Below, piece by piece: positions 15,543-20,866 of a DNA stretch of 26,246 nt. The notes beneath the pieces were generated by a model that was given only the letters and a program-made list of their open reading frames with translations, ran no database searches and had not been told where the DNA came from. The translations under genes and the position numbers were made by a program. Position 1 is the stretch's first letter; each line of letters opens with the position of its first letter. Origin of the DNA: a virus; IMG/VR virus record IMGVR_UViG_3300031867_000495, positions 1 through 26,246 of that record; one strand, 5' to 3'.

Positions 15543-15995
15543 ATGAGTTCTTATATCAGTTTTTATTTAAAGGTAGAAGATAAATATTGTCCTTTAGGTT
15601 CTTATTCAAGAAACTGCTCTGAGTATAGATTTTTTAAAGATTTTGTTCCTTATGAAAAATTAGGTCCTTTGACTCTTGACAATTTAAGTACTATAAAAGA
15701 GGATGTTGATTTCTCAATTAAAAACAAAGAGGAGGCTATAAAAAATTATAGTAATAATATTGAACTTATAAAGACTTTTAATAATTCAGCAGAAGATAAG
15801 TTGCAACTAATAGGACAAAATCTTGAGGTAGTAGAAGAATTTAAAGAAGGTTTAGAAGAAGATAATAAATGTCTTACTTTTATAAGCTTTTTAATGAATA
15901 TACTAATAGATGCTAATTATGATACATATGCCAAAGACCATGGTATTAAAGCGGATAATTACCTTTGGGCAGGGATTGAAGTAAGTGTAAAATAA
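15543..15995 (+). CDS. Hypothetical protein (150 aa) with no in-frame TAG
   Basis: Intact ORF with a strong RBS and a TAA stop. No recognisable domain. Confidence 0.65.
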   Translation: MSSYISFYLKVEDKYCPLGSYSRNCSEYRFFKDFVPYEKLGPLTLDNLSTIKEDVDFSIKNKEEAIKNYSNNIELIKTFNNSAEDKLQLIGQNLEVVEEFKEGLEEDNKCLTFISFLMNILIDANYDTYAKDHGIKADNYLWAGIEVSVK

Positions 15996-16008
15996 TTTGA
16001 AATTTTAT

Positions 16009-16037
16009 AAAATTTTTAATATAATATATTCATAAAG
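16009..16037 (+). promoter_or_regulatory. Conserved promoter-like box (copy 2) AAAATTTTTAATATAATATATTCATAAAG, upstream of the MVP-like gene
   Basis: The same motif family as at 15497, followed by RBS AAAGAGG and ATG 16061. Confidence 0.45.
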
Positions 16038-16060
16038 AAAAAATAAAAGAGGTAAAAAAT

Positions 16061-18559
16061 ATGGCAACAAGATATAATGATGATGGATGGGAAGGCCAGT
16101 CTCAAATGACTAGACAGCGAGATTTGGTACTATCTACTAATGAGTTTTGTTTTCTCCAGTCTAAAACAAATGGTGCTATTAAAACATACACCGGTCCTAT
16201 TACAATGACAATTTCCGCACAGGAATCGCTTGTTGTTTTTAATGCAAAAACAAAGAAATTTGAAGAAACCCAGGATTTTGAAAAAGCTAAGCAGTTATTT
16301 ATTTCTGCGCCCGAGGGTTGGTATGTAGTATTAAAGAATCCTGCTACAGATAATTCTCATCCTGAGGCGGCAAAGGCTGTAAACAGTCCTAATCTTGAAA
16401 TTGGACGTAAGATTAATATTGCGGGTCCTGTTTCGTTCTCTCTTTTCCCTGGTCAGATGACAAGGGTAATTAGAGGTCATAGACTTCGTTCTAACCAGTA
16501 TCTTTTGGCGCGAGTTTATGATGCAGAGGCCGCACGAAAAGAAATTGGAACTGCAACTATTGTAAATACTGAAGGCAAGGAAGTTATTGCAACTCCCGAG
16601 GAATATTTCGTTGGTCAGATGATTGTTATTAAAGGTACAGAGGTATCTTTCTATATTCCGCCAACAGGAATTGAAGTTATTCCTATCGGAAATAGTAATG
16701 AATATGTGCGTGATGCTGTTACTCTTGAACGTCTTGAATATGCTATTCTTAAAGACGAAGATGGCGAAAAGAGATATATTCATGGTCCCGCAGTTGTCTT
16801 CCCCGAGCCTACAGAGACATTCGTAACTGCTCCCAAGGGAGGACTTATTTTCCGAGCTTTGGAACTGTCCCCTATTAGTGGTATTTATGTAAAAGTAATT
16901 GCGGCATATGATGAAGAAAAAGATGGTAAAACTATTCATCATCCTATCGGAGAAGAGTTGTTCATTACTGGTAATGACCAGATGATTTATTACCCTAGAC
17001 CTGAACATGCAATGATTCAGTATGATGGAAAATATATGCATCATGCTATTGCTATTCCCGAAGGTGAAGGCCGCTATATTCTTAACAGACTTACAGGTGA
17101 AATCACTACAGTTCGAGGTCCTCAGATGTATTTACCTGACCCCCGCACCGAAGTTGTTGTTAAGAGAAAATTGACGCCAAAAGAATGTGCTTTGATGTAC
17201 CCTGGTAATAAAGAGGTTCTAGCATATAATGACGGATTAAGTGAACTGGCAACAGAAAGAGCAGCAAGAAAAGGTTTAACTAATTCTACTGCGGTTACTG
17301 ATTTGCTTAATAATGTTTATACTACTAGCAACCAGGAATCTACACTTGCTATTTTTGAGGCAAATGCTAATATCTCCCGTGGAGTTAGTTATACAAAGCC
17401 TAGAACAATTACTCTTGATACTAAATATGAAGGTGTTGTTGCAATTGACGTTTGGGGTGGTTATGCTATTAATGTGGTTTCTAAAACAGGAAATAGAGAA
17501 GTTGTTATTGGACCTACAACTAGACTTCTTGATTATGATGAAACAATTGAGGCTCTATCTCTTTCTACAGGAACACCTAAAAATAATGAAGTTACACAGC
17601 CAACCGCTTTTCTTCAGATTGAAAATAACAAAGTAACCGATATTGTCACAGTGCAGACAGCAGATTTTGTTAATGTTGGAGTCAAAATGGTTTATTATGT
17701 CAATTTCTTGAAGGAATATCAGGATTCTTGGTTTGCAATCAATGACTATGTAAAATATTTGACAGACAATATGCGTTCTCTTATCAAGAGAGAGATTAGA
17801 AAATATACTATTAAAGACTTTTACGCTAACGCTACTGAAATTATTAGAAATATCATTCTTGATGTTAATACAGAAACGGAAGCTACTGATGAGCCTAAGC
17901 CTTTTGGCAGATTTTTCCCTGCAAATGGTATGCTAGTAAGTGATGTTGATATTATTCAAATTAGTATTGCGAAGAATATTGCAGCAATCCTTGAAAAGCA
18001 TCAGAATGATATTATTCAAAAGGATATTGAACTTTCTGATGCGGAAGCTCGTTTGAATGCTGCTAGAGAGCTGGCTGAAATGCAGAAGGAAGAAGCCAGA
18101 ATTAAAAACGAAGCTACACTTTTCGAACTTCACCTTAAACAGGAAAATGAAAAGCAGCAAATGGATAATGAAGAGGCTCTTCAGGCAAAGAAACGCGAAG
18201 CAAAGGCCGCAGAAGTTCAGGCTAAGAAAGATTTACAGGAAGTTTTGTCTGTAATCCAGACAGCAGAGATGGAAAGACAGAAAGAAAAGCATGATGCAGA
18301 AATTGCATATGAAAAGGAACTTGCCGAAATCGAAAAGAGCAAGAAGGAAGCATATGCAAATACAGTTAAGGAAATTATGAGTGCAGTATCTCCTGACCTT
18401 ATCGCCGCTCTTAGTGCAAAAGCTAAAGCAGATATTTTGACAGAGGGTATGGCTAGTATGAGTCCTTATGCTCTTGCTAATGGTGAATCTGTTGCGGATA
18501 CGGTTAATAAACTTCTTCGTGGAACAACTCTTGAAGAAATTATCAATGTAAAAGATTGA
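16061..18559 (+). CDS. Major vault protein (MVP) homologue (832 aa). It has N-terminal MVP-type repeat domains, a shoulder (SPFH-like) domain and a long C-terminal Glu/Lys/Ala/Gln-rich coiled-coil 'cap-helix' region. It is monocistronic
   Basis: The repeat segments match eukaryotic MVP repeat signatures. VIKGTEVSFYIPPTG matches VVKGEKSFFLQPGE, GRYILNRLTGEITTVRGPQMYLPDPRTEVVVKRKL matches [33 protein letters not shown], and GEELFITGNDQMIYYP matches GEEWLVT...Y.P. The shoulder region FFPANGMLVSDVDIIQISIAK matches [21 protein letters not shown]. The gene has its own promoter box, a TGA stop and a downstream intrinsic terminator. The comparison was recalled from memory of the MVP sequence, not searched. 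Confidence 0.75.
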   Translation: MATRYNDDGWEGQSQMTRQRDLVLSTNEFCFLQSKTNGAIKTYTGPITMTISAQESLVVFNAKTKKFEETQDFEKAKQLFISAPEGWYVVLKNPATDNSHPEAAKAVNSPNLEIGRKINIAGPVSFSLFPGQMTRVIRGHRLRSNQYLLARVYDAEAARKEIGTATIVNTEGKEVIATPEEYFVGQMIVIKGTEVSFYIPPTGIEVIPIGNSNEYVRDAVTLERLEYAILKDEDGEKRYIHGPAVVFPEPTETFVTAPKGGLIFRALELSPISGIYVKVIAAYDEEKDGKTIHHPIGEELFITGNDQMIYYPRPEHAMIQYDGKYMHHAIAIPEGEGRYILNRLTGEITTVRGPQMYLPDPRTEVVVKRKLTPKECALMYPGNKEVLAYNDGLSELATERAARKGLTNSTAVTDLLNNVYTTSNQESTLAIFEANANISRGVSYTKPRTITLDTKYEGVVAIDVWGGYAINVVSKTGNREVVIGPTTRLLDYDETIEALSLSTGTPKNNEVTQPTAFLQIENNKVTDIVTVQTADFVNVGVKMVYYVNFLKEYQDSWFAINDYVKYLTDNMRSLIKREIRKYTIKDFYANATEIIRNIILDVNTETEATDEPKPFGRFFPANGMLVSDVDIIQISIAKNIAAILEKHQNDIIQKDIELSDAEARLNAARELAEMQKEEARIKNEATLFELHLKQENEKQQMDNEEALQAKKREAKAAEVQAKKDLQEVLSVIQTAEMERQKEKHDAEIAYEKELAEIEKSKKEAYANTVKEIMSAVSPDLIAALSAKAKADILTEGMASMSPYALANGESVADTVNKLLRGTTLEEIINVKD

Positions 18560-18571
18560 TATATATTATAA

Positions 18572-18608
18572 AAGGGGCAAGATAAAAAATTGCCCCTTTA
18601 TTTTTTTA
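18572..18608 (+). terminator. Rho-independent terminator AAGGGGCAA-gataaaaaat-TTGCCCCTT followed by TATTTTTTTT
   Basis: A perfect 9-bp GC-rich stem plus a T-run, immediately after the MVP-like gene. Confidence 0.7.
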
Positions 18609-18641
18609 AAAATTTTTATTATAATATATATATAAGATAAC
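18608..18641 (+). promoter_or_regulatory. Conserved promoter-like box (copy 3) AAAAATTTTTATTATAATATATATATAAGATAAC
   Basis: Motif family as above. RBS AGGAG and ATG 18686 lie downstream. Confidence 0.45.
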
Positions 18642-20246: not shown

Positions 20247-20255
20247 AGGATAAAA

Positions 20256-20292
20256 AATCAAGCAGATTTTTTTCTGCTTGATTTTTTTTTAA
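20256..20292 (+). terminator. Rho-independent terminator AATCAAGCAGA-ttttttt-TCTGCTTGATT followed by a T-run
   Basis: 11-bp stem and poly-T directly after the ligase TAA. Confidence 0.7.
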
Positions 20293-20320
20293 TTTTTTTA
20301 TATAATATATTTATAAGAAT
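20290..20320 (+). promoter_or_regulatory. Conserved promoter-like box (copy 4) TAATTTTTTTATATAATATATTTATAAGAAT
   Basis: Motif family as above. RBS AAGGAG and ATG 20341 lie downstream. Confidence 0.45.
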
Positions 20321-20340
20321 AAAAAAGGAGATGATTTTTT

Positions 20341-20562
20341 ATGATGAGAATTTATAGAGTGTTTTTTCTTAACTCTGCCGGAGTAAAGCGAGAAATTGGA
20401 CGAGGAAGAACTATCAAAGAAGCTAAGAAAAGAATAGCTAGATTTCTTGATGAAAAGAAATATAAATCTTATTATTGGCGATTTTGGGAAGAAGATGGAT
20501 ATATTTGGGTTGATGTCGGTTCTTGGTCTGAATTCTTCCTTATGAAAGGAGAGCTGATTTAA
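20341..20562 (+). CDS. Hypothetical small basic protein (73 aa)
   Basis: Intact ORF with an RBS and no in-frame TAG. Confidence 0.5.
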   Translation: MMRIYRVFFLNSAGVKREIGRGRTIKEAKKRIARFLDEKKYKSYYWRFWEEDGYIWVDVGSWSEFFLMKGELI

Positions 20563-20563
20563 T

Positions 20564-20866
20564 ATGGCAAGGAAAACAAAAGATATTCGAAATGTCGCCC
20601 TCAGCGATTTTTATTGTACAAAATGTGGGATGAAAGGAATCCCAGTATTCAGAACAATAGGCCAAGAAAGAGAACCTGGGCACCTTAAAAAGCTATTTTG
20701 TTTACATTGTCAAGAGGAGACTAATATGGCGGAAGTTCGTCCCCGTGGCAAATATACCCTAGATGATTTCTGGATTGAATACCAGGGTGGTAACTTCACA
20801 TCAAGCGGCGACCGCATTGAACCTTGGAAAATTTTTGTAGCTAATTATAAAAAAGGAGGCGATTAA
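20564..20866 (+). CDS. Zinc-ribbon protein (100 aa) with CxxC...CxxC (CTKCG ... CLHCQ)
   Basis: Two Cys pairs about 27 residues apart. Intact ORF that starts 2 nt after the upstream stop. Confidence 0.55.
   Translation: MARKTKDIRNVALSDFYCTKCGMKGIPVFRTIGQEREPGHLKKLFCLHCQEETNMAEVRPRGKYTLDDFWIEYQGGNFTSSGDRIEPWKIFVANYKKGGD

What the first reader, a model, noticed from the sequence alone, without database searches (positions are those of the whole stretch)
15543..20866. A six-gene module completely free of in-frame TAG is embedded between recoded blocks
The plus-strand genes 15543..20866 comprise a hypothetical protein, the MVP homologue, a hypothetical protein, the RNA ligase and two small proteins. 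They hold about 1750 codons without one in-frame TAG. The flanking minus-strand structural genes and the downstream plus-strand HEG and lysis genes average roughly one TAG per 100-250 codons. This split is what is expected if the module is expressed under the host's standard code, before the code switch, and the rest afterwards
Basis: seen in the sequence. Interest (0 to 1): 0.6.

Follow-up and report, generated by a model that had tools for sequence, protein, structure and literature searches.

The report
TAG-free early genes in recoded phage
In a phage that reads the stop codon TAG as an amino acid in its tail and lysis genes, a block of separately promoted genes (a vault-protein homologue, an RNA ligase and their neighbours) is kept free of TAG; this is the known mark of genes that must be translated with the host's normal code before the phage changes it, and the changed code here seems to read TAG as glutamate rather than the usual glutamine.

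Summary
Confirmed. Window 15543-20866 holds six plus-strand genes (1,677 sense codons) with no in-frame TAG. The 13 flanking genes hold 43 TAG in 6,340 codons, exactly what base composition predicts (43.1). The module should hold 10-16 (P about 1e-5 to 1e-7).

The pattern is selected, not accidental. In about 25 TAG-recoded relatives and seven 92-95% identical contigs, the vault-protein homologue, RNA ligase and neighbours never carry TAG, while tail-fibre and lysis genes do. None of 548 variable codon sites in the module involves TAG, against 9 of 465 next door.

Module genes are separate units behind one conserved sigma-70-type promoter, with terminators. TAG-bearing genes lack that promoter. 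This fits the published model in which early genes are translated in the host code and late genes after a suppressor-tRNA switch. Timing itself remains inferred.

The module is not a closed six-gene unit. It continues through a phosphoesterase gene, split here by a TAG-rich homing-endonuclease insertion.

Unexpected by-product: TAG falls on near-invariant glutamates, so this phage probably reads TAG as Glu, not Gln.

The parts
2..15346 (-). Recoded structural block: nine minus-strand tail-fibre and tail-associated genes (m1-m9) holding about 32 in-frame TAG.
   Evidence: ORFs under TAG read-through. PHROG tail hits for m9, m5 and m4. Laminin_G_3 on m6. TAG counts.
15478..15519 (+). Promoter of p1 (-10 TATAAT at 15508-15513), a member of the conserved promoter class.
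   Evidence: A PWM trained only on relatives scores it 28.9; the maximum in shuffles is 15.1. Sequence seen directly.
15543..15995 (+). p1, hypothetical 150 aa, 0 TAG. Its codon usage resembles the flanks.
15990..16031 (+). Promoter of the MVP gene: TTGAAA (15997-16002), 17-nt spacer, TATAAT (16020-16025).
   Evidence: 11 of 12 consensus match. Conserved upstream of MVP in most of 45 relatives, both recoded and standard-code. PWM score 29.5.
16061..18559 (+). p2, major-vault-protein homologue, 832 aa, 0 TAG. Strong codon bias: CAG 26 of 30 Gln codons, and CTT preferred over TTA.
   Evidence: Pfam. Codon tables. 45 relatives at 55-81% identity, all TAG-free.
18571..18607 (+). Intrinsic terminator after MVP: GGGGCAA / TTGCCCC stem followed by a T run.
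   Evidence: Fold z = -3.5.
18590..18631 (+). Promoter of the p3-p4 unit (-10 at 18620-18625).
   Evidence: score 18.7; exact match to the consensus 18-mer.
18686..20246 (+). p3 (111 aa) and overlapping p4 RNA ligase (411 aa; KxDG motif 'EKIDG'); 0 TAG.
   Evidence: phrog_968, E=1e-59.
20252..20297 (+). Intrinsic terminator after the RNA ligase: 15-bp stem and T run.
20271..20312 (+). Promoter of the p5-p6 unit: TTGATT (20278-20283), 17-nt spacer, TATAAT (20301-20306).
   Evidence: score 20.8.
20341..20866 (+). p5 (73 aa) and p6 (100 aa; zinc-ribbon, phrog_1257 'host takeover' category); 0 TAG.
20868..20896 (+). 5' end of the phosphoesterase gene (MIYFTADLH..), cut off from the rest by the insertion.
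   Evidence: In seven HEG-free relatives the 179-aa Metallophos gene starts at this position, 2 nt after p6.
20897..21999 (+). 1,103-nt insertion flanked by CATAT. It carries the GIY-YIG homing endonuclease p7 (20972-21955; 6 TAG at 21002, 21050, 21200, 21245, 21368, 21725) and a degenerate copy of the module promoter.
   Evidence: Alignment to HEG-free alleles breaks at 20896 and resumes at 22000. Pfam and PHROG. Promoter-like score 16.6. No Rfam intron match.
22000..22515 (+). Remainder of the phosphoesterase gene; 0 TAG. It belongs biologically to the TAG-free block.
   Evidence: tblastn with relatives' intact genes gives 66% identity over 176 aa..
22526..22951 (+). p9, 141 aa, one TAG (22733-22735) that is CAG in all seven close relatives.
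22964..23008 (+). Strong intrinsic terminator (18-bp stem) immediately upstream of the lysis genes.
   Evidence: Fold z = -9.1. No class promoter downstream of it.
23030..25918 (+). Recoded lysis genes: p10 (MBL fold plus CW_7, 2 TAG) and p11 (GH25 + CHAP + SH3 endolysin, 2 TAG).
2860..3324 (-). m3, a PF06541 membrane protein. Its TAG codons at 3241-3243 and 3088-3090 fall on near-invariant glutamates of the family. This is the evidence on what TAG encodes.
   Evidence: Among 150 diverse representatives, E is found in 135 of 138 and 140 of 147. Four close relatives alternate only between TAG and GAA at these codons.

Best explanation
The window comes from a large (about 140 kb by its relatives) rumen phage of a Gram-positive host. 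The phage reads TAG as a sense codon in its structural and lysis genes.

The genes from 15543 to 20866 belong to the class that must be translated while TAG still terminates, that is with the host's unmodified machinery early in infection. So does the phosphoesterase that follows them in relatives. Any TAG arising in these genes would truncate the protein, so selection removes it.

These genes are arranged as short autonomous transcription units: [P-p1], [P-MVP-T], [P-p3-RNA ligase-T] and [P-p5-p6-phosphoesterase-p9-T]. All sit behind one conserved host sigma-70/sigma-A-type promoter. The tail and lysis genes lack that promoter, carry TAG at the frequency expected for an unconstrained codon, and can be completed only after a phage suppressor tRNA-CUA has accumulated.

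Shown here: the TAG partition, its conservation, purifying selection against TAG, and the promoter and terminator anatomy. Inferred: the timing, and the presence of a suppressor tRNA in this phage.
For: 1. Statistics: 0 TAG in 1,677 codons, against 10.5-16.4 expected.

2. Conservation: in all recoded relatives (MVP identity 55-81%), MVP, RNA ligase, phosphoesterase, AAA_33 kinase, GyrB/GyrA-like genes, RNase H, a flotillin-like gene and LigA are TAG-free. Tail-fibre giants carry 2-3% TAG and endolysins 1-2%.

3. Micro-evolution against seven contigs 92-95% identical: 0 of 548 variable codon sites in the module involve TAG, against 9 of 465 in m9, p9, p10 and p11 (Fisher P=8.7e-4). This is despite 271 codons one step from TAG in the module.

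4. Codon optimisation does not explain it. The weakly biased small genes (604 codons) also hold 0 TAG where 4.1 are expected (P=0.016). The same holds in relatives: six small TAG-free genes in L009 lie next to tail genes at about 1.9% TAG.

5. Promoter class: a PWM trained only on relatives finds, in the whole window, hits above the shuffle maximum only upstream of p1, p2, p3 and p5 and in the HEG leader. The consensus 18-mer occurs 8 times against 0.83 expected. In 12 recoded relatives, promoter-bearing genes are TAG-free 33:4, against 85:59 for the others (P=4e-4).

6. Terminators bound the units.

7. In L042 the same promoter sits 30 nt upstream of a suppressor tRNA-CUA that has its own terminator.

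8. The model is published for other recoded phages (bioRxiv 10.1101/2021.08.26.457843, read). A related phage, ctOa11, is reported as TAG-recoded with tRNA-Sup-CTA (PMC10607447).
Against: - There are no expression data of any kind.
- The window holds no tRNA, and the rest of this genome is not available; the source contig is the window itself.
- The promoter class could be constitutive rather than early.
- The partition is not absolute. p9 shares a unit with TAG-free genes and has one TAG. Some replication genes of relative L119 carry 1-4 TAG. The TAG-rich HEG has a promoter-like leader of the same type.
- MVP's strong codon bias shows that translational selection also acts on it.
- The promoter association counts related genomes, so its P value is optimistic.
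Confidence: 0.7

Rival explanations
1. TAG is avoided in the module because it is a slow, inefficiently decoded codon and these genes are highly expressed. This would be ordinary translational selection, independent of when the genes are expressed.
For: MVP and RNA ligase show strong synonymous bias: CAG 80% of Gln against 20-34% in the flanks, CTT 53% of Leu against TTA 65%, and ATA, CCA and TCA avoided. The same bias is seen in standard-code relatives such as L030, L011 and L033, so it is a property of the gene and not of recoding.
Against: The weakly biased genes of the block (p1, p3, p5, p6, phosphoesterase; 604 codons) are also TAG-free (P=0.016). They remain so in every relative. In the flanks TAG occurs at exactly its composition expectation, so there it is not a disfavoured codon.
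Confidence: 0.12
2. The module is a set of accessory cassettes ('morons') that must work in a state where the lytic code switch is off, such as a prophage, carrier or pseudolysogenic state, rather than early in lytic growth.
For: Each unit has its own sigma-70-type promoter and terminator, which is moron-like architecture. The MVP unit is absent from an otherwise near-identical contig, L055, where p1 is followed directly by p3. A preprint reports an MVP phage largely contained in a Clostridium MAG contig.
Against: No integrase or repressor was noticed in the window or in the roughly 22-kb loci of the relatives inspected, but most of their ORFs were not annotated. The genomes carry own gyrase, ligase and large tRNA arrays, typical of virulent phages. 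The same TAG-free, promoter-bearing class includes core replication genes.
Confidence: 0.08
3. The module was recently acquired from a standard-code donor and has simply not had time to accumulate TAG.
For: GC and GC3 are higher, and codon usage differs from the flanks.
Against: MVP and, where present, RNA ligase and phosphoesterase keep their order downstream of MVP across relatives down to 55% identity, both recoded and standard-code. There are 548 variable codon sites among close relatives without a single TAG.
Confidence: 0.03
4. Chance or base composition.
For: Four of the six genes are too short to be informative on their own.
Against: The composition-corrected expectation is 16.4 TAG against 0 observed, while the flanks show 43 observed against 43.1 expected. 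The pattern is replicated in independent lineages.
Confidence: 0.01

Closest known systems
Stop-codon-recoded phages with standard-code early genes and recoded structural and lysis genes (Borges et al., bioRxiv 10.1101/2021.08.26.457843; crAss-like, Lak, Agate, Garnet and other clades)
   Same: TAG is absent as a terminator. In-frame TAG is concentrated in structural and lysis genes. Replication and early genes are standard-code compatible. Suppressor tRNA-CUA occurs in relatives. A recoded homing endonuclease sits in an early gene.
   Different: This is a different phage clade: rumen or gut phages of about 140 kb that carry MVP and infect Gram-positive hosts. The TAG-free class is tied here to a defined conserved promoter. 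TAG appears to be read as Glu, whereas that work reports only TAG to Gln and TGA to Trp.
phAss-1 / ctOa11 group of TAG-recoded gut phages (Babkin et al. 2023, PMC10607447) and the phage MVPs of ctOa11 and ct2Ri15 (Santos et al., bioRxiv 10.1101/2023.11.10.566534)
   Same: Genomes of about 135 kb, many tRNAs including tRNA-Sup-CTA, TAG in virion genes, an MVP gene in ctOa11, and Bacillota hosts suggested.
   Different: Those papers assign TAG to Gln and do not analyse which genes are TAG-free, the promoters, or selection. I could not compare sequences directly, because the records are not in the phage collection searched.
T4 early RNA-repair genes (Rnl1 RNA ligase with Pnkp kinase/phosphatase); from my own knowledge
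   Same: In relatives an RNA ligase, a P-loop (AAA_33) kinase and a metallophosphoesterase sit together. The probable role is repair of host-cleaved RNA early in infection.
   Different: The proteins belong to other families (PF09414 with the PHA02142 OB domain; Metallophos). The kinase is missing in the window. The function is inferred from domains only.
Peritrich ciliate nuclear code (NCBI table 30, TAA/TAG = Glu); from my own knowledge
   Same: A stop codon is read as glutamate.
   Different: That is a eukaryotic nuclear code covering both TAA and TAG and used genome-wide. Here only TAG is affected, in a phage, and only in part of the genome.

Membership tests
Code-partitioned, TAG-recoded phage (Borges-type code switch) | In-frame TAG inside genes whose reading frame and homology continue across it | tested here: met
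   Coding capacity rises from 5,606 to 8,856 aa. A 1,756-codon ORF holds 8 TAG in one frame. Pfam domains span TAG. TAG-TAG conservation among relatives.
Code-partitioned, TAG-recoded phage (Borges-type code switch) | TAG abandoned as a terminator | tested here: met
   The 19 complete genes end in TAA (13) or TGA (6).
Code-partitioned, TAG-recoded phage (Borges-type code switch) | Structural and lysis genes recoded; early and replication genes standard-code compatible | tested here: met
   Window. Relatives. Some replication genes in L119 carry 1-4 TAG, as that model allows.
Code-partitioned, TAG-recoded phage (Borges-type code switch) | Phage-encoded suppressor tRNA with anticodon CUA | tested here: inconclusive
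   None in the 26-kb window or in the close-relative loci. Present in more distant relatives L042 and L043. The rest of this genome is unavailable.
Code-partitioned, TAG-recoded phage (Borges-type code switch) | Temporal order: TAG-free genes expressed before TAG-containing genes | not testable with these tools
   Only promoter and terminator anatomy is available.
Genetic code 15 (TAG = Gln) | TAG codons align with conserved glutamines of homologous families | tested here: not met
   m3: E in 135 of 138 and 140 of 147 homologues; Q in 1 each. Relative's GH73 catalytic residue: E in 109 of 110. Across the loci, conserved columns at 0.9 consensus or above give E 9 and Q 1, while control sites recover their own residue.
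Major vault protein family | MVP shoulder domain and vault repeat above Pfam thresholds | tested here: met
   PF11978 at 82.8 bits (cut-off 25); PF17795 at 33.5 bits (cut-off 28.8). Assembly into a vault-like shell was not tested.
ATP-dependent RNA ligase (PF09414 nucleotidyltransferase) | Ligase domain above threshold and KxDG adenylation motif | tested here: met
   PF09414 at 79.1 bits and PF21189 at 65.7 bits. 'ATEKIDGTS' is visible in the translation.
Group I intron carrying a homing endonuclease | Ribozyme core recognisable; 5' exon ends in U and intron ends in G; excision restores the host gene | tested here: inconclusive
   Excision of 1,103 nt restores the ORF exactly. However, there is no Rfam hit even at E up to 10. 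The non-ORF parts are 75 and 44 nt at 12% and 25% GC. The U...G rule is met only by a splice that changes Leu to Phe (sequence).
Host sigma-70/sigma-A-dependent promoter | TTGACA-like -35 and TATAAT -10 at 17 +/- 1 nt, conserved in position upstream of genes | tested here: met
   TTGAAA-17-TATAAT and TTGATT-17-TATAAT. Conserved across relatives. Activity was not testable.

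The most novel reading that the evidence does not exclude
The partition is not between the standard code and code 15. It is between the standard code and a code not described for phages or bacteria, in which TAG means glutamate.

The TAG-free genes form a promoter-defined, host-code regulon. In at least one relative the same promoter also drives the suppressor tRNA. A selfish homing endonuclease inserted in that regulon is held back by six TAG codons.

A possible route, by inference only: a tRNA-Gln-like amber suppressor is charged with Glu by the non-discriminating GluRS of a GlnRS-less Gram-positive host. 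It then escapes GatCAB transamidation because its 1:72 pair is broken (U1.C72 in L042).
Probability: 0.7. Interest if true: 0.75.

Novelty: new member of a known kind. Interest (0 to 1): 0.45.

Why it matters
The TAG-free block is a clean, statistically strong and evolutionarily replicated example of the early/late code partition proposed for recoded phages. It occurs in a clade where the partition had not been analysed.

It adds two things that make the model testable:
- a defined promoter that marks the standard-code class;
- population-level evidence that TAG is actively purged from that class.

Practically, genes of such phages must be called with a mixed code.

If TAG is glutamate here, every database translation of this clade made with table 15 carries wrong residues. 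These include catalytic ones: 'Q' at the GH73 catalytic Glu and at two near-invariant Glu of PF06541. In that case the idea that phages can only reach TAG=Gln and TGA=Trp would need revising.

Tried and rejected
- **Phage collection:** megablast of the module found nothing. tblastn of MVP found only three unannotated megaphage records at about 38-42% identity.
- **tRNA and Rfam:** no tRNA in the window. No Rfam family at gathering threshold. Nothing intron-like around the HEG at E up to 10.
- **More of this genome:** looking up the code-11 fragment of the endolysin found nothing. The source contigs are the window itself.
- **Other copies of the HEG insertion:** an exact-junction search of viral contigs found none.
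- **Group I intron reading of the insertion:** not adopted. No ribozyme core was found, and the flanks are very AT-rich and short. It is not excluded.
- **m4 ending at the TAG at 3461:** a TAG terminator was considered. The code-15 gene call running to 3302, with m3 starting at 3324, explains the region without one.
- **Inferring the TAG amino acid from polymorphisms among close relatives:** ambiguous (TAG<->CAR 5, GAR 3). With standard-code subjects only, Q was favoured on 58 cells. These results were superseded by the conserved-column tests.
- **Database 'Q' in close homologues:** rejected as evidence once their DNA showed TAG at those codons.
- **Representative search with an X-containing window protein:** A homologue was used instead.
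- **GC-rich 64-nt intergenic element:** folds no better than shuffles.
- **Host identification from MAG bins:** inconsistent names (Bacilli, Erysipelotrichaceae, Clostridium, even Methanobrevibacter), so no host codon-usage test was possible.

Full report
**What the window is.** The 26,246-bp window is a phage fragment of about 33% GC. Reading TAG as sense raises the capacity of long ORFs from 5,606 to 8,856 aa; reading TGA as sense does not. The left 15.3 kb holds nine minus-strand tail-fibre and tail-associated genes. One has 1,756 codons with 8 TAG in a single frame. The right part holds plus-strand genes:
- p1;
- an 832-aa major-vault-protein (MVP) homologue;
- p3;
- an RNA ligase;
- p5;
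- a zinc-ribbon protein, p6;
- a GIY-YIG homing endonuclease (HEG);
- a phosphoesterase;
- p9;
- an MBL/CW_7 protein;
- a GH25-CHAP-SH3 endolysin.

The endolysin points to a Gram-positive host. No tRNA and no Rfam family is present. The window is itself a complete JGI contig, and a nearly identical ENA contig of 25.4 kb exists, so the rest of the genome is out of reach. Close relatives come from ENA and Logan metagenome assemblies, some labelled STEW19.

**The observation.** The six genes at 15543-20866 hold 1,677 sense codons and no in-frame TAG, although TAG occurs 49 times out of frame. The other 13 genes hold 43 TAG in 6,340 codons. Positional base composition predicts 43.1 for them, so TAG behaves there as an unconstrained sense codon. 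It predicts 16.4 for the module. The probability of zero is:
- 1.1e-5 from the flank rate;
- 2.9e-5 when conditioned on Gln codons;
- 6.8e-12 when conditioned on Glu codons.

The longest TAG-free coding run is 1,690 codons, against 582 for the next. No gene ends in TAG. Only MVP (P=0.004) and the RNA ligase (P=0.06) are individually informative. The four small genes are not.

**Conservation.** A scan of viral contigs with MVP gave 45 loci from contigs of mostly 120-195 kb, at 55-81% identity. About 25 are TAG-recoded, with ORF coverage rising from 0.5-0.7 to above 0.9. About 20 use the standard code.
- In every recoded relative, MVP, RNA ligase and phosphoesterase are TAG-free. So are an AAA_33 kinase, GyrB- and GyrA-like genes, RNase H, a second metallophosphatase, a flotillin-like protein and a DNA ligase.
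- Giant tail-fibre genes carry 2-3% TAG and endolysins 1-2%.
- Some replication genes further downstream carry 1-4 TAG, and a 319-aa membrane protein carries 21.

The module is therefore part of a wider standard-code-compatible class, not a special island.

**Micro-evolution.** Seven contigs from other samples are 92-95% identical to the window across the module. In them the TAG-free run covers p1 to the p9 homologue. The lysis genes carry TAG, and the following genes, including GyrB, are again TAG-free. Across these comparisons 548 codon sites vary in the module and none involves TAG. In m9, p9, p10 and p11, 465 sites vary and 9 involve TAG (Fisher P=8.7e-4). The module nevertheless holds 271 codons one substitution from TAG. 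This controls for evolutionary rate and shows purifying selection against TAG.

**Regulatory anatomy.** A near-consensus promoter, TTGAAA-17-TATAAT, lies 35 nt upstream of MVP. It is conserved upstream of MVP in most relatives, whichever code they use.
- Very similar sequences precede p1, p3 and p5.
- A weight matrix built only from the relatives finds hits above the shuffle maximum, in the whole window and on both strands, only at these four sites and in the HEG leader.
- The 18-mer consensus occurs 8 times against 0.83 expected.
- Terminators follow MVP, the RNA ligase and p9. The last one sits directly in front of the lysis genes, which have no such promoter.
- In 12 recoded relatives, genes directly behind this promoter are TAG-free 33:4, against 85:59 for the rest (P=4e-4; relatedness inflates this).
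- In L042 the same promoter stands 30 nt before a suppressor tRNA-CUA that has its own terminator.

**Codon usage.** MVP and the RNA ligase prefer CAG, CTT, ATT/ATC, CCT and TCT. They avoid TTA, CAA, ATA, CCA and TCA, the reverse of the flanks. Standard-code relatives show the same bias in MVP, so it is a property of the gene, probably reflecting high expression on host tRNAs. The avoided codons are those served by tRNAs in relatives' tRNA arrays. The weakly biased small genes are TAG-free too: 604 codons with 4.1 TAG expected (P=0.016). Optimisation alone therefore does not explain the pattern.

**Interpretation.** The data fit the published model in which early genes are translated in the host code, and structural and lysis genes after suppressor tRNA accumulates (Borges et al.). 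Related phages were already described as TAG-recoded (Babkin et al.), and phage MVPs have been reported (Santos et al.). Timing is inferred, not shown. I put 0.7 on this explanation. The rivals are:
- pure translational selection, 0.12;
- expression in a non-lytic state, 0.08. The units look like morons, and the MVP unit is missing from the near-identical contig L055;
- recent transfer, 0.03;
- chance, 0.01.

**The HEG.** HEG-free alleles read ...GATTTACATATCGGG..., with the 179-aa phosphoesterase starting 2 nt after p6. The window matches them up to 20896 and again from 22000. It therefore carries a 1,103-nt insertion flanked by CATAT.
- The insertion holds the HEG, with 6 TAG in 327 codons.
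- Near its 3' end is a frame-shifted second copy of the gene's first codons.
- Precise excision would restore the gene.
- No intron core is detectable, and the non-ORF parts are short and 12-25% GC.
- It is either an unrecognised self-splicing element or a disruption of the gene.
- Its TAG load parallels the recoded intron endonuclease in an early gene noted by Borges et al..

**What TAG encodes.** Residues opposite TAG among the relatives were mostly E (27%), not Q (8%). Polymorphisms among close relatives were ambiguous. The conserved-column tests were decisive.
- In the window's m3 (PF06541), the TAG codons at 3241-3243 and 3088-3090 fall on two of the seven most conserved columns of the family. 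These are E in 135 of 138 and 140 of 147 diverse representatives, and Q in one each.
- In four close relatives the four TAG columns of this gene alternate only between TAG and GAA. The 'Q' in database proteins is TAG translated with table 15.
- In relative L003 a TAG occupies the catalytic Glu of the GH73 glucosaminidase domain. It is E in 109 of 110 homologues and aligns to the Glu of FlgJ structures, including an entry with Ala at that position.
- Across all loci, TAG sites in columns with 0.9 consensus or above are E 9, K 3, Q 1 and three others. True E sites give E in 92 of 110, and true Q sites give Q in 63 of 73 and E in 1 of 73.
- More distant lineages (L018-L043) may differ.
- I found no report of TAG=Glu in phages in the library searched.
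- The L042 suppressor has a tRNA-Gln-like D-arm and a U1.C72 mismatch. From general knowledge of the indirect Gln-tRNA pathway, this suggests charging with Glu without transamidation. That is speculation.

**Verdict.** As a TAG-free early block it is a new member of a known kind. The likely TAG=Glu reading of the flanking blocks is the more novel result.

Noticed in passing
window 3241-3243, 3148-3150, 3088-3090, 2914-2916 (minus strand, gene m3); relative L003:16300-18585: TAG codons sit on near-invariant glutamates. PF06541 columns are E in 135 of 138 and 140 of 147 representatives, and the GH73 catalytic Glu is E in 109 of 110 homologues. Close relatives alternate only between TAG and GAA at these codons. 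TAG is probably read as Glu, not Gln, so database proteins translated with table 15 carry a false Q at these sites.
   Followed up: yes
window 20868-22515: The phosphoesterase gene is split by a 1,103-nt insertion (20897-21999) flanked by CATAT. The insertion carries the TAG-rich GIY-YIG endonuclease and, near its 3' end, a frame-shifted duplicate of the gene's first codons (ATG at 21963, MSQTFFTSDLH, then TAG). Seven near-identical contigs lack the insertion. No intron core was found.
   Followed up: partly
window 16061-20246; relatives L030, L011, L033, L009: MVP and the RNA ligase use CAG, CTT, CCT and TCT and avoid TTA, CAA, ATA, CCA and TCA, the opposite of neighbouring genes. This also holds in standard-code relatives. 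The avoided codons match tRNAs found in relatives' tRNA arrays (Leu-UAA, Gln-UUG, Ile-UAU, Pro-UGG, Ser-UGA).
   Followed up: partly
L055:3382-4448 compared with window 15543-19011: In one contig otherwise 80-94% identical in the flanking genes, the whole MVP unit is absent. The p1 homologue is followed directly by the p3 homologue and the RNA ligase. MVP is therefore a presence/absence cassette within this phage population.
   Followed up: partly
window 22964-23008: A very strong terminator hairpin (18 bp, z = -9) lies about 20 nt upstream of the first lysis gene, with no recognisable promoter after it. The lysis genes may need read-through or an unrecognised late promoter, on top of TAG suppression.
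   Followed up: partly
window 15413-15476: A 64-nt GC-rich element lies in the AT-rich divergent intergenic region between the tail genes and p1. It is conserved at 94-97% in close relatives and has an outer TGCGG...CCGCA inverted repeat. Its predicted fold is no better than shuffles, and its function is unknown.
   Followed up: partly
L003:7509-9080, L005:7313-8869; L009:14306-14806: Some relatives encode a flotillin-like SPFH protein (Band_7 + Flot) close to MVP, whose own shoulder domain weakly matches the SPFH/Band_7 model (below Pfam's cut-off). They also encode an AAA_33 kinase between the RNA ligase and the phosphoesterase, which together would make an RNA-repair set. The window lacks both.
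   Followed up: no
L119:15176-16132: A 319-codon gene for an N-terminally membrane-anchored protein has 21 in-frame TAG (6.6% of codons), by far the densest seen. It lies among mostly TAG-free replication genes and may be a lysis or timing regulator.
   Followed up: no
L043:20495-20591; L042:21160-21235; L026:3643-3718: Suppressor tRNAs in relatives are heterogeneous. One CUA tRNA is 97 nt with a long extra arm. One is 76 nt with a tRNA-Gln-like D-arm and a U1.C72 mismatch. One relative also has a UCA (opal) suppressor. The amino acid read at TAG may differ between lineages.
   Followed up: partly
window 3302-3461: Gene-model ambiguity. m4 either ends at the TAG at 3461-3463, or runs on through three TAG codons to TAA at 3302 and overlaps the start of m3. 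m3 was not called in the public annotation of the same contig.
   Followed up: partly
phage records LR756500, LR756501 and LR756503 (about 17.2-23.4 kb): MVP homologues at about 38-42% identity occur in 462-735-kb 'uncultured phage' megaphage records, so phage MVPs are not confined to this clade.
   Followed up: no
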